A model generated the notes under the pieces. The model was given only the letters and a program-made list of their open reading frames with translations. It was not told the origin of the DNA and did no database searches. Positions 1,035-46,010 of a stretch of 64,000 bases of DNA are shown one piece after another. Made by a program: the position numbers and the translations under genes. Position 1 is the stretch's first letter. Every line of letters starts with the position of its first letter. Origin of the DNA: Octopus sinensis (taxonomy: Eukaryota); assembly GCF_006345805.1 (NCBI RefSeq), contig NC_043010.1, positions 6,572,001 to 6,636,000 of the forward strand, read 5' to 3'.

Positions 1035-1923
1035 TGCTATGTATCATAAACCATAACCATCAACTGTTTAAAATAATTACGGTGTATCATAAGCCATAAC
1101 CGTCGTCATTTTAAAATAATTACTGTGTATCACAAACCATAACCATCATTAGTTTAAAATAATTACTCTGTATCAGAAGCCATAACCACCATCAGTTTAA
1201 AATAGTTACTCCGCATCATGAACCATAACCGTATTCATTTTAATATAATCACTTTGTATCACAAGCCATAGCCATCATCAGTTTAAAATGACTCCTCTGA
1301 ATCACAAACCATAACCACCATTAGTTTAACAATGTTTACTTTGTATCAGAAGCCATAACAATCATCAGTTTATCAGAAGCCATAACCATCATCAGTTTAA
1401 AATAACTACTTAGTATCACAAGCCATAAATATCATCATTTTAACATGATTTCTTTGTATCACAAGCCCTGGCAGAAACGTTAGCGCGCAGGGCGAAATAC
1501 ATAGCAGTATTTCGTCTGCCGTTACGTTCTTAGTTCAAATTCTGCCGATGTCAACTTTGCCTCTCATCCTATCAGGGTTGATAAATAAAGAACCAGTTAC
1601 GCACTGGGGTCGATGTAATCGACTTTGTCCCTTTGTCTGTCCTTGTTTGTCCCCTCTATGTTTAGCCCCTTGTGGTTAGTAAAGAAATAGGTATTTTGTC
1701 TGCCGCTACGTTCTGAGTTCAAATTCCGCCTAGGTCAACTTTGCCTCTCATCCTATCAGGGTCGATAAATAAAGAACCAGTTACGCACTGGGGTCGATGT
1801 AATCGACTTTGTCCCTTTGTCTGTCCTTGTTTGTCCCCTCTATGTTCAGCCCCTTGTGGGCAATGAAGAAATATATCATCAGTTTAAAATAATTGCTGTG
1901 TGTCATAAACCATAGCCATCATC
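1035..1923. repeat. 43-bp minisatellite (about 10 diverged units at 1035-1467, resuming at 1874-1923), interrupted by a SINE
   Basis: Unit resembles gtatcacaagccataaccatcatcagtttaaaataattact(c/t)t; period about 43 bp; the array resumes after the SINE at 1468-1873. Confidence 0.9.
1468..1873 (+). mobile_element. tRNA-derived SINE family B, dimeric (184-bp body duplicated)
   Basis: Head ctggcagaaacgttagc...gagttcaaattc (A/B-box-like), body gtcaactttgcct..catcc...gataaa..accagttacgcactggggtcgatg, tail gggcaatgaagaaata; more than 10 related copies in the window. Confidence 0.85.
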
Positions 1924-4423: not shown

Positions 4424-5195
4424 GAGGGGACCTGTGGAAGAGGTAGACCCAGGAAAACCTGGGTCGAGGCGGTGAAGCACGACCTTCGAACTTTAGGTCT
4501 CACCAAGGAAATGACCAGTGACCGAGACCTTTGGAAGTATGCTGTGTGTGAGAAAACCCGGCAAGACCAGTGAGAACAGTCAAAATCAAAATCAAACCAA
4601 ATTGAGGTCGATCAACATCGGGGCCCCCGTGCAGGTGACACGTAAAAGCACCATCCGTTCGTAGCCGTTTGCCAGCCCTGTCTGGCCCCCGTGTCGGTGG
4701 CACGTAAAAGCACCATCCGTTTGTGTTCGTTGCCAGCCTGGCCTGGCCCCCGTGCCGGTGACACGTAAAAGCACCATCCGTTTGTGGCCGTTTGCCAGCT
4801 CTGTCTGGCCCCCGTGCCGGTGACACGTAAAAGCACCATCCGTTCGTGGCCGTTTGCCAGCTCTGTCTGGCCCCCGTGCCGGTGACACGTAAAAGCACCA
4901 TCCGTTCGTCACCGTTTGCCAGCCTCGCCTGGCCCCCGTGCCGGTGACACGTAAAAGCACCATCCGTTTCGTGGCCGTTTGCCAGCTCTGTCTGGCACCT
5001 GTGCGGGTGGCACGTAAAAAGCACCCACTACACTCACGGAGTGGTTGGCATTAGGAAGGGCATCCAGCCGTAGAAACACTGCCAGATCTGACTGGGCCTG
5101 ATGAAGCCTTCCAGCTTCACAGACCCCAGTTGAACCGTCCAACCCATGCTAGCATGGAGAACGGACGCTAAATGATGATGATGATGATGATGATG
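4424..5195 (+). mobile_element. 5'-truncated RTE-clade LINE: ORF C-terminus, 3'UTR with about 62-bp tandem array, (GAT)n tail
   Basis: 4424-4573 translates EGTCGRGRPRKTWVEAVKHDLRTLGLTKEMTSDRDLWKYAVCEKTRQDQ* (RTE-type GRGRP.KTW...DR..W C-terminus); seven 61-63-bp units at 4622-5020; ends acccatgctagcatggagaacggacgctaaa(tga)n. Confidence 0.8.
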
Positions 5196-8200: not shown

Positions 8201-8804
8201 ATTTCTTATTTCTTTATTGCTCACAAGGGGCTAAACATAGAGGGGACAAACAAAGACAGACAATGGGATTAAGTCGATTTCATTGACCCCAGTGCGTAAC
8301 TGGTACTTAATTTATCGACCCCGAAAGGGATGAAAGGCAAAGTCGACCTTGGCAGAATTTGAACTCACAACGTAAGGGCAGACGAAATACCTATTTCTTT
8401 ACTACCCACAAGGGGCTAAACATAGAGGGGACAAACAAAGACAGACAATGGGATTAAGTCGATTTCATTGACCCCAGTGCGTAACTGGTACTTAATTTAT
8501 CGACCCCGAAAGGGATGAAAGGCAAAGTCGACCTTGGCAGAATTTGAACTCACAACGTAAGGGCAGACGAAATACCTATTTCTTTACTACCCACAAGGGA
8601 CTAAACATAGAGGGGACAAACAAAGACAGACAATGGGATTAAGTCGATTTCATTGACCCCAGTGCGTAACTGGTACTTAATTTATCGACCCCGAAAGGGA
8701 TGAAAGGCAAAGTCGACCTTGGCAGAATTTGAACTCACAACGTAACGGCTGATGAAATACTGCTAAGCATTTCGCCCAGCATGCTAACAACTCTGCCAGC
8801 TCAC
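8201..8804 (-). mobile_element. SINE family B, trimeric (185-bp units), nested inside a minus-strand SINE A remnant
   Basis: Three near-identical units; flanking direct repeat cttctttta at 8192-8200 and 8807-8815; the SINE A sequence resumes at 8807-8955. Confidence 0.85.
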
Positions 8805-13801: not shown

Positions 13802-13839
<38 letters not shown>

Positions 13840-13861
13840 CACACAAACATATATATATATG

Positions 13862-14050
13862 TATAGTTAATCCAAACATGAAAACACAAAGAGAAAACAC
13901 AACGTGAAGACGTGGAACAAATATAGTATTATTGGATGCTCAGGAAAGAAGGAGGGTTTAACGTTTCGAGCGGAGCTCTTCATTGGAAACATAGGAGAAG
14001 GAAAGATCCAGAGAAGGGAAGACAGAGGAAAAAAAGAGGAAAAAAATACA
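13862..14050 (-). mobile_element. Short (TA)n-adjacent element with a hammerhead-like motif (13956-13990)
   Basis: Minus strand: gttt-CCAATGA-a-gagc-tcc-gctc-GAAAC-GTT-aaac; shares ttcctgagc...taatac with the 45.2-kb elements. Confidence 0.6.
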
Positions 14051-15019
14051 TAGATTGAGATTGGAGCCTGGTGCAGCCATCTAGTTCACCAGCCCGCAGT
14101 CAAAATTGTCCAACCCATGCTAGCATGGAAAGCAGACGTTAAACGATAATGATGATGATGATGATGATGATGATATATATATATATATATATGCGTGTGT
14201 GTACATATACATGCCTACATGCATGCACATACATCTGCATGTATACATACACACACGTGTGCACATACATACCTACAAATATACATAAACATGCACACAT
14301 ACACATGCACACAAGTTTCCCATTATGTCCAATTATTAATCAATTAATTACATCCACAATATTAAAACCTTACATTATTCCGCCAATTCATGCTTTCTGT
14401 GACAATAACTTTAATAAGTGACCTGACTGTGTGAAACAAATATGAAGTGAATGGCTTAAACATGAGTTGGAACTCCAATATTAGACTCTTTTATTAAGAC
14501 AGAGTAAGGAAGACGAGAGAGAGAGAGTGGTGAGTTATGGCTAGTTTATCTGATAGAGACTGGACAATGGATGGTAGCAATAATAGAGAATAACTTAATG
14601 AGAATTTATGGTAAGATGACTGATAATGATTTAATGTATCAGGAAATTTATATTGATGACAGACTTAATGAAAACTTAATGAAAATCTAGCGGACTGCTA
14701 ACGGAAGTTTAAGTATTTGTGTAGATTTTTACTTTACAGGGATTACTTTTATTATTACAGAAATTATTATTGTTGTTGTTGTTGTTAAGGTGGTGAGGTG
14801 GCAGAGTTGTTAGCACACTGTACGAAATGTTTAGTGTCGTTTCTTTCACTTTCACTTTTACATTCTGAGTTCAAATTCTGCAGAGGTTAACTGTGTTTTT
14901 CATCCTTTCAAATTCGATAAGGTAAAATATGAGTTGAGCACTGGGGCCAATATAATTGCCTTTTCTCCTACTGCAAAATTTCAGGTCTTGTGCCCATAGT
15001 TGAAAAAAAAAATATTATT

Positions 15020-15290
15020 AAATTGGTGACTTGTCTCAGATTCATTCTTTTTCCTGGTAGAATTTATGTGGGTAGCAGGTTACTACCTGTAACCTTAGGT
15101 ATCCACAAGCTTTCAATGGTTTTTCAAATGCTTGAAACCCTCCTGATAATCTTCCCAGTCGCTAAGGGGAAAACTTTCTGTAGAAGCTCTAACAGGACAT
15201 TCTCTTTCAATCTCTTTCAACCATTTATCTATATCAAGGGTTCTCATTCGCTGGTTCCAAATCCCCTGAAGGGTCACGAAGCCTTGGTGG
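15020..15290 (-). mobile_element. R4/Dong-like LINE 3' fragment
   Basis: atttatgtgggtagcaggtta is the reverse complement of taacctgctacccacataaat at 38334-38354. Confidence 0.5.
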
Positions 15291-16349
15291 TGGTGGTGGT
15301 GGTGGTGGGGGATTGCATAGCCTTGATTTGGGATAATCTTAATTTTATAAAATGTAAATCAAGCTGCTGACAGTAGGGGCTTGCATGGGTTTCAAGTTTT
15401 TTGGTAAGGGATCACGAGTCCAAAATTTCGGGAACCGTTTGTCTATATCTCTACTTACAGTTCCCAATGAACCAATTATTACAGACACAACCTTTGCAGT
15501 TTTAATTTGCCTTTCATCCTTTCAGGATCGATAAATCAAATACCAACATTTCAGACCTTGTGCTTTAGTAGAAAGGATTATTACTGTTATTGAGTGGGCA
15601 AGCAGCACAGACCATCAAAGTGACATTAAGGTACAAATATATAAAACCCAGTATACCCATCATGACCACCCATGTGATAAAAGTGCACAAACACATGCAT
15701 CACAACCATGTGTGCAACATGATGACCTCAAATCAAGATAAATGGTGCATTACCTTGCAGGTGGGGCCCAGATAGAATTTTCTTCAGGCTGAGTAGCCCA
15801 TCCCACTCAAAAGGTCCCTAAATAAGGGTTATTTAAGGATGATAAACAAAACACCAATGTTTTCCAGGAGACCCTAAAAAGTTCCTCTCAACACACGGCT
15901 ATGATGCTCTCTCACTATTCCTACTTGTGATCAGAGATGCACATATCATCTCCCTCTAAGGGACATGCTCAACTGAATAAGGTCAAGCAACTGACAAGTA
16001 AATCTGTGGTATTGAGCTGAATATTTGCTGTAGCCTATCTGAATTTGGTAGACAGAAACTAAAGGAAACATTTTCAACAACAAACATTCCTTCTGTGTTT
16101 TCTTAAAGATGTAGTAAAAAGAAAATTTGGTTACTATTTCTAGCAGGGCATATGTAAAGATTTCCTCATTGGCTCCCAATATAGTTGTTGTTGTTGTTGT
16201 TGTTTAGACCAGGTTAATCTTTATTGAGAAACCCTAGTTTGAGCCATAGCTATTCCAATATTTTAGAACTATCCAGAACCATTTTATCTGTTAATATATC
16301 CTTCTACTTTTTAGACATTATGGAAAGAGGTTATATGATATATATATAT

Positions 16350-16431
16350 ATATAATAACAATTTAATAAATAAAACATATGCATACATACATACATATAT
16401 GTACATACCTACATCTATATGTATATATACA

Positions 16432-16489
<58 letters not shown>

Positions 16490-16650
16490 TACAGGACACC
16501 ACAAATAAACGTAGAACACAACGAGAAACGAAAACATAAAATCAAACAAGGAAACAGACTTTTTTTAACAACGAAAAAACAGAGTACAAAACAAACAATA
16601 CAAGGAATATTCCCCTTCATCAGCTGCCCCTGTTTCGACTCAATGCGTAT
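16350..16650 (-). mobile_element. Penelope-like terminal-repeat-type element with internal expanded (TA)n; paralogue of 27826-28105
   Basis: The reverse complement aligns with 27826-28105 on both sides of the TA tract; contains ctgatgaaggggaatattcctt. Confidence 0.6.
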
Positions 16651-17303
16651 ATTTAACTGCTATTTCTAGCAGAACGAATGACCACATAAATGCTCCTTTG
16701 TTAACTTGTGACACAGGAGCCCGAGTAGAAAGTAGAACTTGACAAGTGACATCCTATGCCGTACATGAGACATAGTGAAAGTAATATAAGAGACAAGTAA
16801 TAGAAGTTCATAGTAGTGTGAACTTAGATGAGGGAAATGTATTGTATAGTTTGTAGGTTCACAGAGGAAAAGGACTGTTTTAGTAGGAGAGGAGAAAGTA
16901 GAGGGAGAGTAGTGTTTAACACTGTTAGTAGGTTAAGGATGGATGTTTCCTATATTCCCTGTCACCGAAATGGCTTCTTGGACACTGTTTAAAATGTGCA
17001 ATGTTTTAATATGTGCAAAGTACAATGTCACAAATGGGCAGTAGATTAGGGATGATAGGAGACAGGGATAGTGAAACACGGAGAGACAGTGTAAAATAAT
17101 GTAAACTAAAAAAAAAGGAAAAGGGGCTCATGAAAGGAAGAGAAAGTATGGAAAAGGGAGAATAAGAGAGGAAAAAAGGAAGAAAGGGAGCGAGAAAATA
17201 AGTGTGCTGTGATACAGCCAGATAGATAAATATATAAATACATATCTATCTGTCTATCAATCTATCTATCTATCAATCTATCTATCTATCATTCTGTCTC
17301 TCT

Positions 17304-17338
<35 letters not shown>

Positions 17339-17346
17339 TATATATA

Positions 17347-17402
<56 letters not shown>

Positions 17403-17424
17403 TAATATATATATATATTATTAT

Positions 17425-17467
<43 letters not shown>

Positions 17468-17910
17468 TATATATATATAATATATAAATACAGTGTACAT
17501 TTACACACATAAGAGGCATCCATCATGATTTTTGCAGCTTCCTAATGCAACCACTATAAAATGAAAGAAGACTATTATATATATATATATGCATATATAT
17601 TCGTCCATATGTGTATGCCTTTGTGTTTGTCTTCCATCACTGTTTATGATTGATTTGTTCAACTAAACCCATCAAAGCTGTGGCTCCAGCATGGTCACAG
17701 TTCAAAACCTGGAACAGATAAAAACTAAAGGATAAATGATATATACAGGTGGGGGCCATGTGGTAAGAAGTTTGCTTCTAAACAACGTGGTTCCAGGTTC
17801 CAGGTTCAGTCCCACTGCATGGTCCTTTGGGAAAGTAAGTGTCTCCTACTATAGCCTCAGACCAACCAAAGCCTTGTGAGTGGATTTGGCAGACAGAAAC
17901 TGAAAGAAGC

Positions 17911-17954
<44 letters not shown>

Positions 17955-17956
<2 letters not shown>

Positions 17957-18138
17957 GGGAAGGTTTACGAAAATAAACAAAAGACGAAGGCAGGTTTATG
18001 AAAATAAACAAAAGACAAAGGCAGGTGGACTAGAAATAAAACAAGTCTTTTACGTTTCGAGCCTATGCTCTTCGACAGAAAGATACACAGAAAAGAAACA
18101 AGGAGAGAAAAAAATGCGTGTAAGAGCTAACATGGCAT
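17955..18138 (-). mobile_element. Short microsatellite-embedded element with a minimal hammerhead motif (18046-18083)
   Basis: Minus strand: tcttt-CTGTCGA-a-gagc-atag-gctc-GAAAC-GTA-aaaga; 3' end abuts (TA)n. Confidence 0.7.
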
Positions 18139-18814
18139 TCTGATTTTTCCATTGAATTAGATACTTAAATTGAGACACCTGGCAAGGTCGGTATAATTTA
18201 CACACCCAAACAATATTAACTGAATATTGAATATTAAGACTCCATGCAGGTTTGTTTGTACCTGATATTCCGGCCACCGTTTGTGGAGACAATGCAACCC
18301 AGCAAAATGAAGATATCCACTCTTGGTAATTCAGACAGGTACTTTGTATAAAAAGTGCAGATTCTAAGTTAGGTGAATAGAATATAAATGGATAACAATG
18401 ATGTACAGGTGTCAATTCATTATGGCCATTTCAAGCAGCTATTTTAATTGATTAATGAAAACATCACATTATTTGAAAGAAACCATTCACAATCAGATGA
18501 TCACATAGTCTTCAAACATAAAGGATACAACCATTTGACTATTCCGGCAGAGAAAGGTCTTATTATATACGATTATACACAAATGTGTTAAACCGGACAT
18601 TACACGAATATATATCTTTTTATTTTATTTTTTACTTGTTTCAGTCATAAGACTGCAGCCATGCTGGAGCACTGCCTTGAACGATTTTAGTCAATAGCCA
18701 TCTCTACCTTCGCCCCTGCCCCATCAAGCATTCCCTTACTGCTAACCCTACAACCTACCCTTTTGTGTAAAAAGGCTTAGATATATGGTACCAGTACATT
18801 GAGAGTCCAGTAGA

Positions 18815-19180
18815 TTCATCATCATCATCATCGTTTAACGTCCGTTTTCCATGCTAGCATGGGTTGGACGGTTCGACCGGGGTCTGGGAAGCCAGGAGGC
18901 TGCATCAGGCCCAGTCTGATCTGGCAGTGTTTCTACAGCTGGATGCCCTTCCTAAGGCCAACCACTCCATGAGTGTAGTGGGTGCTTTTTACGTGCCACC
19001 CGCACAGGTGCCAGGGGAGGCTGGTAACGGTCACGATCAGTTGGTGCTTTTTACGAGCCACCAGCATGGAAGCCAGTCAAGGTGGTGCTGGCATCGACCA
19101 CGTATGGATGGTGCTTTTTACGTGCCAGGGGAGTCTGGCAACAGCCATGATTGGTTGGTGGTTTTTACATGCCACCAACC
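18815..19180 (-). mobile_element. RTE-3'UTR-derived element with (GAT)n tail
   Basis: catcatcatcgtttaacgtccgttttccatgctagcatgggttggacgg, the reverse complement of 5130-5190. Confidence 0.8.
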
Positions 19181-19654
19181 ACAGACAATAGATTGTCTGA
19201 CATCAATTGATTTATCACCATCTACTAGAATACAGTTGACAACTCCCAATGGATTTAATTCCAAATCGTTGAAGACTACATTCTACTTAAAGTCTTCTAA
19301 ATATAAGAAACAAAGTCACCCCTTTTTTTATCATGACACTATTTCCTCTGCTACTCTCTAAATTATAGTAGGCTTGACATGATATGCCTTATTTTCTAAA
19401 CTCATTCTGCCAAAGAAACAATGTAAATATTTTGAGTTCCATTATTGATGTAAATATGTTTAAAAAATGGTTATATCCTTTATGTTTGAAGTCTATGGTG
19501 GTCATCTGATGAGAACAGTTGCTTTCAAATGATGTAGTGTTTTCATTCATCAATTAAATGAGCCCACTTCAAACAGCTGTAATGAATTGACACCTGTACA
19601 TCTTTGTTACTCATATATACATATATATATTAATGATAAATAATATATATATAT

Positions 19655-19700
<46 letters not shown>

Positions 19701-19707
19701 ATATATA

Positions 19708-19850
19708 TTCTCTACTTTTTTTTCTCTCCTTGTTCCTCTCCTGTTTCTTCTTTGTGAAGAACGTAGGCTCGAAACGTTAAAGACTTTTTCAATTCCTGTG
19801 CCTTATACTAATACATCTGTTTGTTTTCTACACCAGCTGTATTTGTGAAT
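19708..19850 (+). mobile_element. Degenerate copy of the hammerhead-bearing short element, between (TA)n and (CT)n
   Basis: gtgaagaacgtaggctcgaaacgttaaagactttttcaattcctg...tactaatacatctgtttgtttt. Confidence 0.6.
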
Positions 19851-19930
<80 letters not shown>

Positions 19931-21395
19931 GCATATAGGGGTACAGGATGTCACCTACTGTGCAAGCAACATGAAATACATAAACAAATGAATTAAATAC
20001 ATAATCAACGAGAGAATAAAATAGAAAACATGAAAAGTAAACACAGAGAAAGGACCCTTCATCAGTTGTGGGCTGTCTATCAACTCCTCATTTTGAGCAT
20101 TCAATGACAATATGAGTCTTCAAAGACAGTTGCACCCATAAATTCTAAAATATAATTTAGGATTTATGGAGAGTCAAACTTGGAAACATAAACACGACAG
20201 AGGAGACATACAAAGAAACCAAATGAAAACAAACATGGAGGGTCGTTAGACCAGAACGAGAGGAAAATAGTGAATGCCGAGAGAAATATTTTCTTTGAAA
20301 AGAGAAAAGAGAGAAGAGAGAGAGAAAAAATATCTAGTCTTTTGAATGTCTGTGCGGTAAAAGAAAGATGGTCATGTGAGGAAAAGAAAGATGGACGATG
20401 GGCACATGTGAGCAACGAGAGAGAAAAAGAGAAAGAGGGAGGGAGAGATAGAAAACGGTGAAAGAGGGAGGGGGAGAAAAAGGGAATTAGAGAAGGATGG
20501 AGGAAGAAAAGAGTATAAAGTAGGGTTGCATCAAAAAAGGTGAAGATAAACTTATTTGGAAATAGATGTGCACGTGTGAGTCTTTGTGTATGCATTTGTC
20601 CCCACCACCACCACCACCACCACCACCACCACCACCACCACCACCACCACCACCACTAGACAACCAGTATTGGTGTGTTTACATTCAGCAAAAGAGACCG
20701 ATAGATTAAGTACTAGACTTTACAAAACATAACAAGTACTGGGGTCAATTTGTTTGACTAAAATTTCTACAAGGAAGTGCTCCAGCATGGCTGCAGTCTA
20801 ATGATTGAAACAAGTAAAAATAGAAAATAAAAGGATATATATTCATGTAATGTCCTGTTTAACACATTTGTATATAACTGTATATGATAAGAGCTTTCAC
20901 TGCAGGAATAGTCAAATGAGAAAATCCTCTATTTAGATTTGAGTAAATTCACATTTTGCTTTGGGTTGTGAGTGACGTCATTAGATCATAGAATGCACGT
21001 GTTTCTGCATCATTCCCCATCATCAGCTATGAACGCTAATACAGTTACTCACAGCCCAGTGGAAACAGGCGCATAGGATGTCTGCTGGTGTGTGAATGGC
21101 CTGGTCAGGCTAGACTTGAATAATTAATGTTACACATAAGTCATGTGTAACATGTTCAATGATAATTGGCCATCTTGTTATTGTGTGGGAAGACAAACAC
21201 AGACACAATGACATATACACACACACATATTCACATTCAAATACACACAGATGTATCGAATTCATTCACAAGGCATTGGTTGGTCTGAGGCTATAGTAGA
21301 AAACACTTGCCCTAGCTGCTGTGCAGTGAGACTGAACCCAAAATCATGTGGCTGCAAAGTGAGTTTCTTAACCATACAGTCATGCCAGTTGTACC

Positions 21396-21435
<40 letters not shown>

Positions 21436-21438
<3 letters not shown>

Positions 21439-21997
21439 TTTTATTCTTTTACTTGTTTCAGTCATTTGACTGCGGCCATGCTGGAGCACCATCTTTAGTC
21501 GAACAAATTGACCCTAGGACTTATTCTTTGTAAGTCTACCAAATCCACACAAGGCTTTAGTCAGCCTGAGGCTATAGCAGAAGACACTTACCCAAGGTAT
21601 CACACAGTGGAAATGAACCCAGAACCATGTGGTTGGGAAACAAGCTTCTTACCACACAGCCCATCATCATCATTATCATCATCATCACCACAACGCCCAT
21701 CATCATCATCATCATCATGTATGTTAAACTACGAGGATGATGATATAGGTGCAGGAGTGGCTGTGTGGTAAGTAGCTTACTTACCAACCACATGTGTGTG
21801 TATCTTGTTTGTCCCCCCCACCATCACTTGACAACTGATGTTGGTGTGTTTACATCCCTGTAACTAAGTGGTTCAGCAAAAGAGACTGATAGAATAAGTA
21901 CTAGGCTTACAAAGATTAAGTCCTGGGGTCGATTTGTTCAACTAAAAGTTGTGCTCCAGTATGGCCACAGTCAAATGACTGAAACAAATAAAAGAGT
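21436..21997. mobile_element. Two internally deleted SINE A copies in opposite orientation (21436-21660 minus; 21748-21997 plus)
   Basis: SINE A head and tail motifs on opposite strands. Confidence 0.7.
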
Positions 21998-22113
21998 ATA
22001 ACTCCTCTGCACTATGTTTATATTTTTAATTATAAAACGATGATGATGATGATGATGAAATTAAATATTCTTGAATGATGCCAAGTGTTTTGCTTGTTCA
22101 TTATCTGTTAAAA

Positions 22114-22432
22114 TAATGTGGCTTAGTGGTTAGGGTATTTGGCTCACAGTCATAAGGCCATGAGTTCAATTCCTCGTGACACATTGTGCCTTTGAGCAAG
22201 ATACTTAATTTCCCCTTGCTTCTGTCCACTCAGCTGGTGAAAATAAGTTGTACCTGTATTTCAAAGGGCCATCCTTGTTACACTCTGTGTCACACTGAAT
22301 CTCCCTGAGAACTACATTAAGGGTACCTGTATCTGTGGAGTGCTTAGTCACTTACATGTTAATTTTATGAACAGGGTATTTTGTTGATTGGAGCAACTGG
22401 AACCCACATCATCATAATTGACAGAGTGCCAG
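22114..22432 (+). mobile_element. Older tRNA-derived CORE-like SINE (family D)
   Basis: tggcttagtgg (A box), gagttcaattcc (B box), tttgagcaag and gtccactcagctg; related fragments at 49180-49340 and 51520-51680. Confidence 0.65.
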
Positions 22433-22616
22433 TAATGTATATTTACCAGCTCAATGATGAAACACTTCTAGCCACCTTTGATAAGCAATTTCACCACCAC
22501 ATTTTGTAGATCAAGCTGGAGTTTTAGTGGTGAACCAAATTGAGTACTCATAGTACATACCTATTATATTACATCAATGAAAAAAATTTTCTGTATAAAT
22601 GCTACATATATATATA

Positions 22617-22806
22617 GGGAGAGTTTACGAAAAAACAAAAGACAAAGACAGGTGGTGTACAAAACAAACAGATGTATTAGTATAACACTCAGGAATAGAA
22701 AAAGTCTTTTACGTTTCGAGCTTACGCTCTTCTACAGAGAGGGACACAGAAAAAAACAAGGAGAGAAAAATAAGTGTATGCAGTGGCTAACGATCTATCA
22801 TGGCGA
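22617..22806 (-). mobile_element. Short element with a hammerhead-like motif (22705-22741), between (TA)n and (CA)n
   Basis: Minus strand: cgccatgatagatcgttagcc...CTGTAGA-a-gagc-gtaa-gctc-GAAAC-GTA-aaagac; same subfamily as 45847-46010. Confidence 0.7.
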
Positions 22807-27825: not shown

Positions 27826-28105
27826 TTCGCCTTGACCATCGAAATGTGGAGTAGATGAAACAAAGGCGACTGAAGAAGGGGAATTTTCCTTGTTTTGTAT
27901 GTCCTGTACTCTATTTTTTCATTGTTTAAGAAAAATGTCCATTTCCTTGGTTTTGTGTTTATGTTTTCGTTTCTCATTGTGTTCAACGTTTTTTTTGGTG
28001 TCCTGTACCCATATATGCATGTATATATACATGTAGAGGTAGGTATGTACATATATGTATGTATATATGCATATGTTTTATTTATTTATTGATTTATTAT
28101 ATATA
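27826..28105 (+). mobile_element. Penelope-like terminal-repeat-type element between TA tracts
   Basis: Paralogue of 16350-16650; contains ctgaagaaggggaattttcctt. Confidence 0.6.
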
Positions 28106-31387: not shown

Positions 31388-34152
31388 TCAGGTGAAGTTT
31401 CGGCGGATTTCGGAAAGCATGAGGGCCTTAAAAGATGCAGTGTCATGGCAGTCAACAACTGACGCAGGCAGTTTATTCCATGCTTCAGCAACTCTGAGCG
31501 TGAAAAAATGTTTCCGAAAGTCATGGGAGCTGTATTGTTTTCTGACTTTGTAGGCATGTCCACGTGTGTTAGACACATGGAGATCAAAAAGGTGTTCAGT
31601 GTTGTTGTTGGTGAGGTGGTGATAACTTTGTGGGTGTTTACCAAGTCCGTCGCCAAACGCCGGAGCTTCAGTGAATCCATGCCCAGGGAAACAAGGCGCT
31701 CAGAATATGGTAGGTGTCTGATGGAGGGTATGCGTTTGGTTGCACGTCTCTGGACAGATTCCAGGAGGTCAATGTTCTGTGCAAGATAGGGGTTCCAAAC
31801 TGATGATGCGAATTCCAAGTGTGGTCGTACCATAGCTGTATACAGTTTTAAATAGATGGCTGGAGAGCGGCTAACAAAAGACCTGCTGAGTGATGCCAAG
31901 ACACCCTCGGCCTTCCTGACAATCTTAGAGATATGCTTTGACCAACGCAGATCATTGCTGACAGTGATGCCTAGGTCACGCTCGCAAGAGGATTTCTTGA
32001 TATCAGTGTTGTGGAGGGAGTATGTGAACGCAGGGTTTTTTCTCCCAAAATGCATGGTGGTACACTTGTCCACAGCCAGTTTCAGTTGCCAGTCTGTGAT
32101 CCATTGCTGCATTGTGTCTAGGTCTGATTGCAGGAAAGAGTTGTAGACATCAGGATCTGTCCTCTTGATTTCAAGGTACAGCTTGATGTCGTCTGCATAT
32201 TTCAATACTGTGGCATTCTTTAAATTGGCATCTATGTCGTTAATGTATGCCACAAACAAGAGGGGGCCAAGGACAGATCCCTGTGGTACACCCGATGACA
32301 TCTCATATGGTGTAGAGTGCTGTCCTAGAACTGTGACTACCTCCTTTCGGCTGAGGATGAAGGATTTCAACCAGTTAAAAAGGTCATCCCCCACACCCAT
32401 TGCAGAGAGTTTCACCATAAGCCTTTTGTGTGGCACAGAGTTGAAAGCCTTAGCAAAGTCAAGGTAGACAACATCCACCCATGAGCCACTGTCAGTAATC
32501 TGAGTAATGTCCTCAAGGAACTCGACAAGCTGGTCACTGCAGCTGGAGTTAGGGACAAATCCATATTGTGAGGGTCGGATGAGACTGTGAGAGCTCCAGA
32601 AGTTCCAGAGTGTTTCTCTGACACACGATTCCATCAGTTTTGCAATACAGCTAGTGAGACTGACTGGGCGATAGTTGACAGGTGATGTGCGGTCGCCCTT
32701 TTTGAACAGAGGAATGACACTGACAGTTTTCCACTGCTCCGGAGTAGCACCATTGTTGAGACAGTACTGGAAGAAAATAGAAAGCTGGTGTAAAAGGAAG
32801 TGCCTGCCACGTTTGAGAAGCAGGTATGTAACTCCATCGAGACCAGGGGAGGCATAGTTGCGCTTATTTTGAAGGTGACGTCGCAGCATTGCAGGTGTAA
32901 ATTCCATAGTTGTTATGGAGTTTGCTGTTAGTGATGGTGAAGATGGTACATTTTGACTTTCAACAGTGAATATGTTTGCATAGCACTCGGCAATGAGTTC
33001 TGCGCATTCCTTGGGGTCGTCAGTGATCTGGTTTGTGTGAGGGTTGCGAAGAGGGCCCACTGGAGAGTGAGGTCTCTGCTTTGAGTGCACATATTTCCAG
33101 AAAACCTTGCTGTCAGGATTGGCTGCTATGCACTGTTCAAATTCAAGCACTGCTTTTTTTGTCACTTGCTTGAGATGGTTGGAGGATTTATTCCGCTTCT
33201 TCCTGTTGGTGTCTGATTTATGCAACCTGTATTCCCGTTCAGCAGTCCGACATTCCCTCCTGGCAAGTCGGACCGCTGAAGTTTCCCAAATTGCCCTTTT
33301 GGGGCGGTTCTTCTTTTTTTGTTTACGTGGCACTGATGCTGCACATGCTGCCCATATTGAGTCCAGGATACTCTGGAGTATAGTATTCACATCTCCAGAG
33401 TTGTAGAATTCACGCCAGTTTGGGTGCTGTAGTTCAGTGTGGTACAGGTTCCAATCTGCTCTCTTCCAATCGAAGGAAGCAGATTGGAGATGGTTCAGGT
33501 TTTTGTTGCCCGCAAGAGCCAGATTGGCGATGATCATAGCATGATCAGAGTCACCTAGAGGTTCCTCCGTAGTGCAATTGATAACCGCTTCAGGAGTTGT
33601 GGTGAAGAGCAGGTCCAAGGTGTTGTCGCCTCTTGTTGGAGAGGTGACTACTTGTGACCAGTTTGAGTCCAGCACAAGCTCAACAAAATCGTTTGCACTC
33701 TGTGGCCAATGGAAGGTCTCCCAATCGATCTCAGGATGATTGAAATCGCCTGCAATAAACACATAAGTGGCTGTTTTCCTGGCAGCAGCTTGGAGGACAT
33801 TGCAAAGCTGTGTGTCCCGATGGTAACTTGGGGGACGATAAACAACGCCAAGCAGGAGTGTTGACATGGTCATACGCACGTCACAGAAAAAAACTTCTTC
33901 TTGTGATTCGTTCAAATCGGCACAAGGAATTACCAAAAAATTTGAATGAACGTAGACCATCACACCACCACCACGGCGGTTAGTGCGGTCCTTACGGAAG
34001 AGGTTGTACCCCGTAATGTTGAAAACCCCATCACAGAGTAAGGAATGCGCCCATGTTTCCGTGACAGTGATGAAGTCAGGGTCAACACTTCTGACGTAGG
34101 CGTTGAACAAATGTATTTTGTTGCATAAACTGCGAGCATTTAAGGACAACAA
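31388..34152 (-). pseudogene. LINE ORF2: APE endonuclease + reverse transcriptase, with a 1-bp frameshift near 31620
   Basis: SLNARS, VTETW, AGDFN, LDLLF, SDH (APE); GVPQGSVLGPLLF and KYADD (RT); the conserved C-terminus lies in the shifted frame (track ORF 31388..31576). Confidence 0.93.
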
Positions 34153-34208
34153 TTTGTACCCTGCTCGCAGTTTATGATGGTGTGTAGAGGATGGCAGGTT
34201 GTTCTGGC

Positions 34209-35005
34209 TTAGTTTCCCTGAGTTGCTGTAGTCTTTTTAGTTATTGTGGGTAGAGAGCACTCAGACCAGCTGGTATCTCTCTTCCACGTTTCAGCAGTCT
34301 TGACAAATCTCCAGATTTGTCCATCTTCCCGAAGACTGAAGCTTTCCTGTAGAGCTGAGTTCCTATTCAGGGAAGCCACTACACGTAGCTTCGGACATAC
34401 ATTGGACGGTAAGCCTGGGCGTGTTCGGAAGGTGGTCCGATTTTCCCGCCCAGCTTTAACTGAGGCCAGATGGTAAGAGGTTGCCTCAGTGGGGTCCGTA
34501 AAAGACAACTTGATGAGCCTAGGTTTTGGGCCAGGTCGTCCAAGGCGGATAGCACCCGTTGGGGGAACGCAGCCTAGGTCTTTGGCTGAGTTGGCAGCAA
34601 AAGCCTGAGTTGGCAGCAAAAGCCTGAGTTGGCAGCAAAAGATCAGCCATGTCTTCTGGCACCCCAATGGCAATGACTTCATGGGTGGCAGAATCCGCGG
34701 TCTTAAATGCGACAAGAGGTACAGGTACAGGGAGGTTCTTTAGCAGAGCATTCCGTTAAGACCCCTCATTGTGGAGTCCAACCTGAATGGTTGCTTTTAT
34801 TCCTGCTACTTCCCCTTTTAAAGCACAGATCGATTGTTGCAGTTCTGCAAGAACCGCACTGGTCAATTGGTGTTGTTGTTGTTGCTGCTGTTGCTCTGGT
34901 TGTGGTTGATTTTGTTGTTGCTGTTGTTGTTGTTGATGTTGTTGTTGCTGCTGCTCTGGTTGTGGTTGATTTTGTTGTGCTGCTGCTCTGGTTGTGGTTG
35001 ATTTG

Positions 35006-45106: not shown

Positions 45107-45339
45107 GATCGCCATGTTAATTCGCTAGCCTCTGCACGCATTTTTTTTCTCTCCTTGTTTCTTTCTGTGTTTCTTTTCTGTGTATCTTTCTGTTGAAGAG
45201 CGTAGGCTCGAAACGTAAAAGACTTGTTTTATTTATATTCCTGAGCGCCATACTAATACAATTGTTTGTTTGTATTCCACTGCCTTCATCTTTTGTTTAT
45301 TTTCATAAAGCTTCCGTTATCTGTCTATCTGTCTATCTA

Positions 45340-45459: not shown

Positions 45460-45686
45460 GATCGCCATGTTAATTCGCTAGCCTCTGCACGCATTTTTTT
45501 TCTCTCCTTGTTTCTTTCTGTGTTTCTTTTCTGTGTATCTTTCTGTTGAAGAGCGTAGGCTCGAAACGTAAAAGACTTGTTTTATTTATATTCCTGAGCG
45601 CCATACTAATACAATTGTTTGTTTGTATTCCACCTGCCTTCATCTTTTGTTTATTTTCATAAAGCTTCCCGTTATCTGTCTATCTG

Positions 45687-45730
<44 letters not shown>

Positions 45731-46010
45731 CCTACCTACCTATCTATCTATCTATCTATCTATCTGTCTATCTATCTATCTATCTGTCTATCTACCTATC
45801 TATCTATCTATCTACCTACCTGTCTATCTGTCTGTCTGTCTATCTATCACCATGATAGATTGTTAGCCACAACACACATTTTTTTTCTCTCCTTGTTTTT
45901 TTCTGTGTCCCTTTCTGTAGAAGAGCGTAGGCTCGAAATGTAAAAGACTTTTTCTATTCCTGAGCGTTATACTAATACATCTGTTTGTTTTGTACATCAC
46001 CTGTCTTTCT
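45050..46010 (+). mobile_element. Head-to-tail array of three short hammerhead-bearing elements separated by (TCTA)n
   Basis: Units at 45108-45318 and 45461-45673 (near identical, period 353) and 45847-46010 (sister subfamily); hammerhead-like motifs at 45185-45222, 45538-45575 and 45911-45946. Confidence 0.8.
45185..45222 (+). ncRNA. Minimal type-I hammerhead-ribozyme-like motif (core CUGUUGA; predicted cleavage after GUA at 45217)
   Basis: Stem I tcttt/aaaga; ctgttga; bulged a; stem II gagc-gtag-gctc; GAAAC-GTA with palindromic ACGT stem III. Confidence 0.6.

What the first reader, a model, noticed from the sequence alone, without database searches (positions are those of the whole stretch)
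13862..22806. Dispersed family of 150-210-bp microsatellite-embedded elements with a recurrent non-canonical hammerhead core (CUGUNGA)
Seen: motifs at 13956-13990(-), 18046-18083(-), 19746-19784(+) and 22705-22741(-), plus the three at 45.2-45.9 kb. Five copies have U at core position 6 (CUGUCGA, CUGUAGA, CUGUUGA) instead of the canonical CUGANGA. Position 7, the free N of hammerheads, varies (C/A/U), stem II pairing is kept while its loop changes (gtag/atag/gtaa/tcc), and stem I changes between tcttt/aaaga and gttt/aaac. Most copies start near (c)gccatg and all have a 3' end abutting or close to (TA)n, (TCTA)n, (CT)n or (CA)n. Inference: a non-autonomous, probably Penelope-mobilised family with microsatellite target preference and a variant ribozyme core.
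Basis: partly seen in the sequence, partly recalled or inferred. Interest (0 to 1): 0.7.

Follow-up and report, generated by a model that had tools for sequence, protein, structure and literature searches.

The report
Penelope hammerhead with fixed A6U core
These short repeats are the broken-off ends of a Penelope-type jumping gene whose hammerhead-shaped RNA motif carries U instead of a normally fixed core A in over 16,000 copies; the motif likely still cuts slowly (untested), and the build of full-length copies suggests they are copied from a circular RNA that such cutting would make.

Summary
The motifs are real. The seven window copies are not a separate non-autonomous family. They are 5'-truncated ends (solo pseudo-LTRs) of autonomous Neptune/Nematis-type Penelope-like elements (RT + GIY-YIG) that insert at (TA)n.

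There are two lineages. Lineage B has a minimal type I hammerhead with U6 fixed: 16,426 of 17,184 exact matches, and 65 of 66 endonuclease-linked copies (none with A6). Lineage A (copy 13956) keeps A6, often with C4.

Across five B subfamilies 1 of 32 core/stem columns varies against 64 of 147 outside. N7 takes all four bases and H17 takes A/U, as in hammerheads.

Solo copies pile up at a putative transcription start (26 of 38 that reach it) and show no excess of ends at the cut site. The 5' repeats of full-length copies run past that start (22 of 23). This fits uncut linear RNA templating solos and circular RNA templating full-length copies.

Best reading: a slow, probably protein- or dimer-assisted ribozyme; cleavage is untested. 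PLE hammerheads and (TA)n targeting are published. I found no printed A6U family but could not read Lunse 2017. This scan noted the family before on other pieces of this genome, and A6U in other genomes.

The parts
13866..14035 (-). 5'-truncated end of a lineage A Penelope-like element; minimal hammerhead C3=13986 to H17=13960, core decayed (CCAATGA, A6, not U6), 3-nt loop II; 3' end against (TA)n 13808-13865
17958..18146 (-). solo pseudo-LTR, lineage B, C7 subfamily; U6 at 18075, predicted cut after 18051; internal deletion and a doubled 3' segment; 3' end against (AT)n 17916-17954
19717..19846 (+). decayed lineage B copy, damaged core and stem II mismatch, truncated at both ends, between (AT)n and (CT)n
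22618..22805 (-). solo pseudo-LTR, lineage B, A7 subfamily; four-codon uORF from 22801; hammerhead C3=22737, U6=22734, predicted cut after 22710; 3' end at a short (TA)n
22710..22742 (-). minimal type I hammerhead motif: stem I, CUGUAGA core, extra A, 4-bp stem II, GAAA, palindromic ACGU in place of stem III
   Evidence: architecture as in PMC4209133
45107..45318 (+). solo pseudo-LTR, lineage B, U7 subfamily, starts at the putative transcription start; U6 at 45193; in (TCTA)n
45460..45672 (+). near-identical copy of the previous element 353 bp downstream (2 single-base indels, no substitution), probably a local DNA duplication; U6 at 45546
45848..46007 (+). solo pseudo-LTR, lineage B, A7 subfamily, 3'-truncated; U6 at 45918

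Best explanation
The repeats are 5'-truncated ends (solo pseudo-LTRs) of autonomous RT + GIY-YIG Penelope-like elements that sit at (TA)n, and the U6 motif of lineage B is likely a slow hammerhead ribozyme that stays under selection because occasional cutting would make the circular RNA from which full-length copies are likely copied. Steps: (1) Shown: the motif lies in both terminal repeats of full-length elements, and the upstream repeat runs into the element body at a fixed TTATA junction that equals the 3' end of all copies. (2) Inferred: the endonuclease nicks (TA)n and reverse transcription starts internally at this TTATA site. (3) Inferred: transcription starts at an initiator-like TCAG about 75-90 nt upstream of the core; uncut linear RNA primed at the upstream site yields the ~190-bp solos that stop at that start. 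(4) Inferred: a minority of transcripts is cut at both hammerheads, helped by dimer formation through the ACGU palindrome and/or by the element's protein, and ligated to a unit-length circle; copying round it gives full-length insertions whose 5' repeat has any length. (5) Inferred: A6U (and U4C in lineage A) weakens cutting, which spares the capped mRNA for translation, since the upstream hammerhead lies between the start and the ORF.
For: Element identity. U6 fixed in autonomous copies: 65 of 66 EN-linked motifs, none with A6. Young family: 150 of 150 listed RT hits 96-100% identical, terminal repeats 0.3-0.8% apart. Selection on the fold: 1 of 32 constrained columns varies versus 64 of 147 outside (Fisher p=3e-6), 0 of 11 strict core columns vary, N7 has four states and H17 two; one G-C/C-G swap in stem I between lineages. 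Linear uncut templates: 26 of 67 solo 5' ends fall in a 20-nt window at the putative start and only 1 in the next 40 nt; only 2 of 25 (TA)n-flanked truncations begin at the predicted cut (counted by eye). More-than-unit templates: 22 of 23 upstream repeats that reach the start run past it, versus 12 of 38 copies lacking the junction (p=5e-7; same subfamily only p=0.015). The two repeats share private variants in L294 and L295. Four head-to-tail arrays of 446-570-nt units carry 3-5 U6 motifs each. Literature: circle model proposed in PMC4209133; protein-assisted PLE hammerhead and internal initiation in PMC11167929; natural A6C and U4C cores keep low activity (PMC3088659, PMC7151607).
Against: No cleavage, circle or transcription start was observed; the available runs were contigs with guessed RNA status. 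In a type III hammerhead all CUGA-turn mutants except the C3-G8 swap had low activity and no second-site rescue (PMC9901934). In the anole PLE the hammerhead is dispensable for insertion in vitro and no RNA ends map to the cut (PMC11167929). Stem II never covaries and loop II is also invariant, so a protein-binding or promoter role could explain the conservation. Part of the copy set was picked by the motif itself, which biases the column test toward invariance, and only five consensuses were compared. Read-through transcripts from tandem loci, strand transfer or DNA-level expansion could also give long 5' repeats and arrays. One lineage A junction copy (L281) and one lineage B copy (L329) do stop at the putative start.
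Confidence: 0.55

Rival explanations
1. The U6 motif no longer cuts. It is kept as a binding or folding signal for the element's protein, or as a promoter/translation element. Long 5' repeats arise by template jumping, read-through of tandem loci or gene conversion.
For: Low activity of CUGA-turn mutants; hammerhead dispensable in vitro; no excess of copy ends at the cut; loop II also invariant and stem II without covariation; one young lineage A subfamily has both C4 and a stem I mismatch and still has 1008-aa ORFs.
Against: The core positions that vary are exactly the two that hammerhead chemistry leaves free, N7 and H17. A single jump efficiency cannot give both many solos stopping at the start (26 of 38) and almost no upstream repeats stopping there (1 of 23). 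No RNase H domain was reported by Pfam in the ORF.
Confidence: 0.27
2. U6 is a dead relic that decays neutrally. It hitch-hiked with a successful master and the rest of the core has simply not had time to change.
For: U6 arose once, so its own invariance means little (56% of outside columns are invariant too); motif-based picking inflates conservation.
Against: Subfamily consensuses differ by up to 37% outside the motif and by at most 3% inside it. EN-anchored copies, not picked by the motif, show the same core from old to young subfamilies.
Confidence: 0.08
3. The short copies are a self-standing non-autonomous, retrozyme- or SINE-like family mobilised in trans.
For: Solos far outnumber full-length copies (16,426 motif matches versus 164 pLTR-body junctions of one subfamily); they have a preferred 5' end; short tandem arrays exist.
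Against: Each solo subfamily matches an EN-linked element; 5' ends range from inside the core to more than 1.2 kb upstream; no solo-specific sequence was seen. Some solos may still be re-mobilised in trans.
Confidence: 0.1

Closest known systems
Minimal type I hammerheads (min-HHR) in pLTRs of metazoan Penelope-like elements (Cervera and De la Pena 2014, PMC4209133; read parts 1-2 of 4, supplements searched in 2 of 3 files)
   Same: Position in pLTR, 4-5-bp stem I, extra nucleotide after A9, G10.1-C11.1 pair, palindromic 15.2-16.2 with no stem III, mostly solo copies; circle model proposed there
   Different: Family-wide U6 (and C4 in the sister lineage); the only core variant named in the text read is U3-A8; stem II is 4 bp rather than 7-8
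Neptune/Nematis clades of EN+ Penelope-like elements (Craig et al. 2021, PMC8557442; passages seen)
   Same: RT followed by C-terminal GIY-YIG with CCHH and a CX4CxxC linker, pLTRs, (TA)n preference
   Different: Neptune versus Nematis not resolved here (no reference sequences); non-canonical core
Poseidon element of the green anole, PAc (Frangieh et al. 2024, PMC11167929; read parts 1-2 of 4)
   Same: Internal start of reverse transcription near the pLTR-body junction, AT-rich target, uncut RNA as main template
   Different: PAc has a canonical core overlapping the ORF start and primes without homology; here the 3' end is a TTATA matching the (TA)n target and the ORF starts about 600 nt after the repeat in L149
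Natural hammerhead core variants A6C (phage Bcep176) and U4C (viroid) (PMC3088659 section 8 and passages; PMC7151607 part 1)
   Same: Single change in the CUGA turn with low but detectable activity
   Different: A6U, fixed in more than 16,000 copies of a retroelement; not assayed
Animal non-LTR retrozymes (bioRxiv 10.64898/2026.07.22.740005; read parts 1-2 of 5)
   Same: Short head-to-tail hammerhead arrays derived from PLE pLTRs (four found here outside the window)
   Different: The window copies are monomers of an autonomous element; the search there used canonical and minimal type I models

Membership tests
EN+ Penelope-like element | single ORF with RT followed by GIY-YIG endonuclease | tested here: met
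   L290 (963 aa open stretch): RVT_1 above cutoff (E 1.6e-7), GIY-YIG E 0.0028 below cutoff; L277 (1008 aa): both families below cutoff; Atlas neighbours carry RVT_1/GIY-YIG/HTH_animal
EN+ Penelope-like element | pseudo-LTRs from partial tandem arrangement with hammerhead in each | tested here: met
   11 two-repeat elements, units 4.3-4.5 kb (B) and 6.1-6.3 kb (A)
Neptune/Nematis clades | CX2-5CxxC linker before GIY-YIG and CCHH motif | tested here: met
   CX4CxxC and C..C/H/H read in L290 and L277; definition from PMC8557442
Neptune clade (versus Nematis) | RT phylogeny groups with Neptune references | not tested
   no named reference sequences on hand
Minimal type I hammerhead of PLEs | stems I and II, extra nucleotide after A9, G10.1-C11.1, GAAA, palindromic 15.2-16.2 | tested here: met
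Hammerhead ribozyme | core consensus CUGANGA | tested here: not met
   U6 in 16,426 of 17,184 exact matches; lineage A has A6 in 100 of 100 listed rows, with C4 in 63 and the canonical core in 30 (counted by eye)
Hammerhead ribozyme | covariation of helices | tested here: inconclusive
   one stem I pair with double change (G-C 7, C-G 6 of 15 rows); stem II invariant
Hammerhead ribozyme | site-specific self-cleavage after H17 | not testable with these tools
   no raw RNA reads; no excess of genomic ends at the site
Non-LTR retrozyme | non-coding tandem units each with a type I hammerhead | tested here: not met
   window copies are monomers apart from one local duplication; met only by four arrays elsewhere in G000 (L338-L341)

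The most novel reading that the evidence does not exclude
A6U defines an active, protein- or dimer-dependent class of slow hammerhead that standard CUGANGA searches miss. In this Penelope family it acts as a timer that splits transcripts into uncut mRNA/solo templates and ligated circles, and the genome records both routes. That would be direct in vivo support for circular-RNA intermediates in a protein-coding retrotransposon and for the origin of pseudo-LTRs by rolling-circle reverse transcription.
Probability: 0.35. Interest if true: 0.75.

Novelty: new variant of a known kind. Interest (0 to 1): 0.5.

Why it matters
What hammerheads do in Penelope-like elements is open: circles were proposed in 2014, while the one in vitro study found cutting dispensable. 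This family offers a natural experiment, with three cores in one genome (U6, C4, canonical), natural A6 back-mutants in the same background, very young full-length copies, and a genomic contrast between solo and full-length 5' ends that makes a sharp prediction (circles joined at H17). If U6 cuts, the hammerhead consensus used in genome searches misses tens of thousands of motifs. If it does not, a very successful family shows that cutting is not needed and the fold has another job.

Tried and rejected
Rfam scan: the 150 listed of 453 hits were microsatellite-driven matches below gathering score, none a hammerhead; the other 303 were not shown.

RNA evidence: no RNA holder listed. Contigs of seven coded runs (four organism labels, B to E, besides A among the holders) cover the motif but cannot show ends, strand or the base at position 6.

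Idea that U6 was selected to zip the core into an inactive hairpin: U6 does pair with A15.1 in predicted monomers (P 0.30-0.98), but opening the core costs no more than in natural A6 copies (higher in 2 of 5 pairs, lower in 3), and C4 does not stabilise that helix. Rejected.

Spike of copy ends at the cut site: not seen (2 of 25 loci). About 10 of 100 copies end within 20 nt 3' of the site, four just after stem I (by eye); this could reflect stalling at the stem or AT microhomology and was left open.

A splice acceptor in CTGTAG was considered; it exists in only one subfamily.

PDB search of the ORF: no hit. Density: 1 copy in 220 kb of control stretches versus 7 in the window, so the window is enriched.

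Print searches: 'hammerhead A6U ribozyme', 'hammerhead Penelope octopus', core-variant and pLTR searches and the Cervera supplements for U6 and C4 cores (one file not searchable, figures not held) gave no A6U family. Lunse et al. 2017, the largest survey of PLE hammerhead variants, was not held and may list it.
Full report
Observation. All seven motifs are in the window at the stated places, and a profile search finds no more. Each has the layout stem I, core, extra A, 4-bp stem II, GAAA, ACGU palindrome, H17, stem I. This is the minimal type I hammerhead described for Penelope-like elements (PMC4209133, parts 1-2 read). Five copies have U at position 6. Copy 13956 has A6 and a 3-nt loop; copy 19746 is too decayed to call. 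The window lies in a 2.72-Gb, microsatellite-rich animal genome (G000:C14). Earlier scan notes call it octopus-like; I did not test this.

U6 is the family state. Exact patterns with a 4-nt loop II gave 16,426 matches with U6, 278 with A6 and 480 with C or G, and 0 for reversed controls. Of 30 fetched A6 loci, 23 were lineage B copies, probably back-mutated, and 7 belonged to a sister lineage with a canonical core (by eye). The 3-nt-loop lineage A gave 12,421 matches. All of the first 100 listed have A6: 63 CCGA, 30 CTGA, 7 otherwise decayed (by eye). The finding therefore joins two related lineages with different core variants, A6U and U4C.

What the elements are. One copy (L052) ran upstream into RT and GIY-YIG coding sequence with a CX4CxxC linker. 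Starting from the endonuclease instead of the motif, 66 of 81 loci had the motif downstream by my filter; 65 had U6, one had a deletion and none had A6. The 15 misses had about 1.5-1.9 kb of flank, and two of them show the motif. Full-length elements carry it in both terminal repeats, with units of 4.3-4.5 kb (B) and 6.1-6.3 kb (A). The U7 subfamily is young: all 150 listed RT hits are 96-100% identical and paired repeats differ by 0.3-0.8%. L290 has a 963-residue open stretch through RT and EN, though it lacks the normal start. The linker and CCHH motif place the elements in Neptune or Nematis as defined in PMC8557442 (passages); I did not separate the two.

Target. (TA)3 lies within 8 nt of the 3' end in 23 of 28 lineage B and 23 of 27 lineage A copies with a recognisable end (33 and 30 examined), against 5.6% of random positions in 200 kb of control DNA. 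In full-length copies the upstream repeat runs into the body through a fixed TTATA junction with no variable TA tract. The common 3' end is thus an internal site of the RNA that matches the target. Internal initiation is shown for the anole element (PMC11167929, parts 1-2 read); here it is inferred. A microsatellite bias for Neptune elements is already in print.

Is the motif under selection? Among five subfamily consensuses (40, 31, 8, 7 and 4 copies; copies picked for A6 dropped; 5 of 95 unclustered), identity outside the motif is 63-90%. Inside it, 1 of 32 core and stem columns varies, against 64 of 147 outside (p=3e-6). N7 takes all four bases, the only column that does, and H17 takes A or U. 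Between lineages one stem I pair swaps G-C for C-G, while stem II never changes. Limits: some copies were picked by the motif, loop II is as invariant as the core, and U6 invariance alone is not significant. The pattern fits selection on a hammerhead fold better than neutral decay, but does not prove cutting.

Footprints of the template. (a) Of 67 lineage B copies picked without regard to 5' extent, 29 end between the core and a landmark ATG, 26 end within -5 to +15 nt of it, 1 in the next 40 nt and 11 further up. An initiator-like TCAG/TCATT precedes this ATG (the label 'initiator' is recalled knowledge), so the cliff is read as a transcription start. (b) Among 25 distinct (TA)n-flanked truncations in the first 100 of 277 rows, 2 begin at the predicted cut and 23 upstream inside the motif. 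These copies were made from uncut RNA, as in the anole study. (c) Of 30 copies picked by the repeat-body junction (164 matches in the genome), 7 end before the landmark, 1 at it and 22 beyond, by 94 to more than 1300 nt. Against the solo set p=5e-7; against the same subfamily alone (4 at, 5 beyond) p=0.015. Eleven two-repeat elements all extend 34-1154 nt beyond; lineage A junction copy L281 stops at the landmark. A linear RNA starting at the cliff cannot template these repeats. (d) The two repeats share private variants in L294 and L295. (e) Four arrays of 446-570-nt units, made of the repeat plus the start of the body, hold 3-5 U6 motifs; L340 starts with a truncated unit in (TA)n and ends at TTATA plus (TA)n.

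Mechanism. Most transcripts likely stay uncut, are translated, and give solos when primed at the upstream TTATA. A minority is likely cut at both motifs and ligated, and copying round the circle gives more-than-unit insertions, the route proposed in PMC4209133. A weakened core suits this, because the upstream motif lies about 110 nt after the putative start and before the ORF. A6C and U4C cores are known to keep low activity (PMC3088659 section 8 and passages; PMC7151607 part 1), and the anole hammerhead cuts only with its protein. Against this, CUGA-turn mutants had low activity without rescue in a type III ribozyme (PMC9901934 passages), and read-through, strand transfer or DNA-level expansion can mimic a circle. 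I put 0.55 on the slow-ribozyme reading, 0.27 on a non-cutting signal, 0.08 on a relic and 0.10 on a self-standing non-autonomous family. That the repeats are PLE ends is near certain.

Novelty. PLE minimal hammerheads, solo copies and (TA)n targeting are published. My searches (and supplements) showed no A6U family. However, Lunse et al. 2017 was not available, and figure alignments and one supplement file of PMC4209133 could not be seen. This scan noted the same family on other pieces of this genome and A6U PLE motifs in other genomes; those notes are unchecked and are not counted as support. Verdict: new variant of a known kind, interest 0.5.

Noticed in passing
window 22787-22801 (-), 45114-45128, 45467-45481, 45852-45866; all five B consensuses: A four-codon uORF directly after the putative start is kept in all lineage B subfamilies, with the stop read as TAG or TAA in consensuses and TGA in some old copies. 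Lineage A has ATG-TGA or a four-codon uORF at the same place. It may be translated, or the CGCCAT may be a YY1-like site (recalled motif).
   Followed up: partly
L338-L341 (G000:C8, C5, C15, C3): Retrozyme-like head-to-tail arrays of 446-570-nt units derived from the young U6 element by joining the 5' UTR back to the repeat; L311, L324 and L337 show similar joins.
   Followed up: partly
L277, L278, L146, L110: A lineage A subfamily with C4, C17 and a U-U mismatch in stem I has two 1008-residue ORFs and near-identical repeats, so it spread recently with an even more altered motif.
   Followed up: partly
L054, L063, L069, L072, L073, L079: An older sister sublineage keeps a canonical CUGAAGA core with the same stem II: a natural control.
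   Followed up: no
L099, L136, L148, L278, L284: Copies of the two lineages often insert next to each other in the same (TA)n tract.
   Followed up: no
window 1507-1873, 8207-8760: 184-185-bp tandem SINE-like repeats; 43-bp (1028-1467) and 62-bp (4622-5025) minisatellites.
   Followed up: no
window about 33300-34300: GC-rich stretch that reads like a LINE reverse transcriptase or endonuclease fragment (seen context only).
   Followed up: no
window about 16500-16660 and 27930-27980 (-): Another repeated element end with a CTGATGAAG motif near 16620 (-), possibly a different Penelope-type terminal repeat.
   Followed up: no
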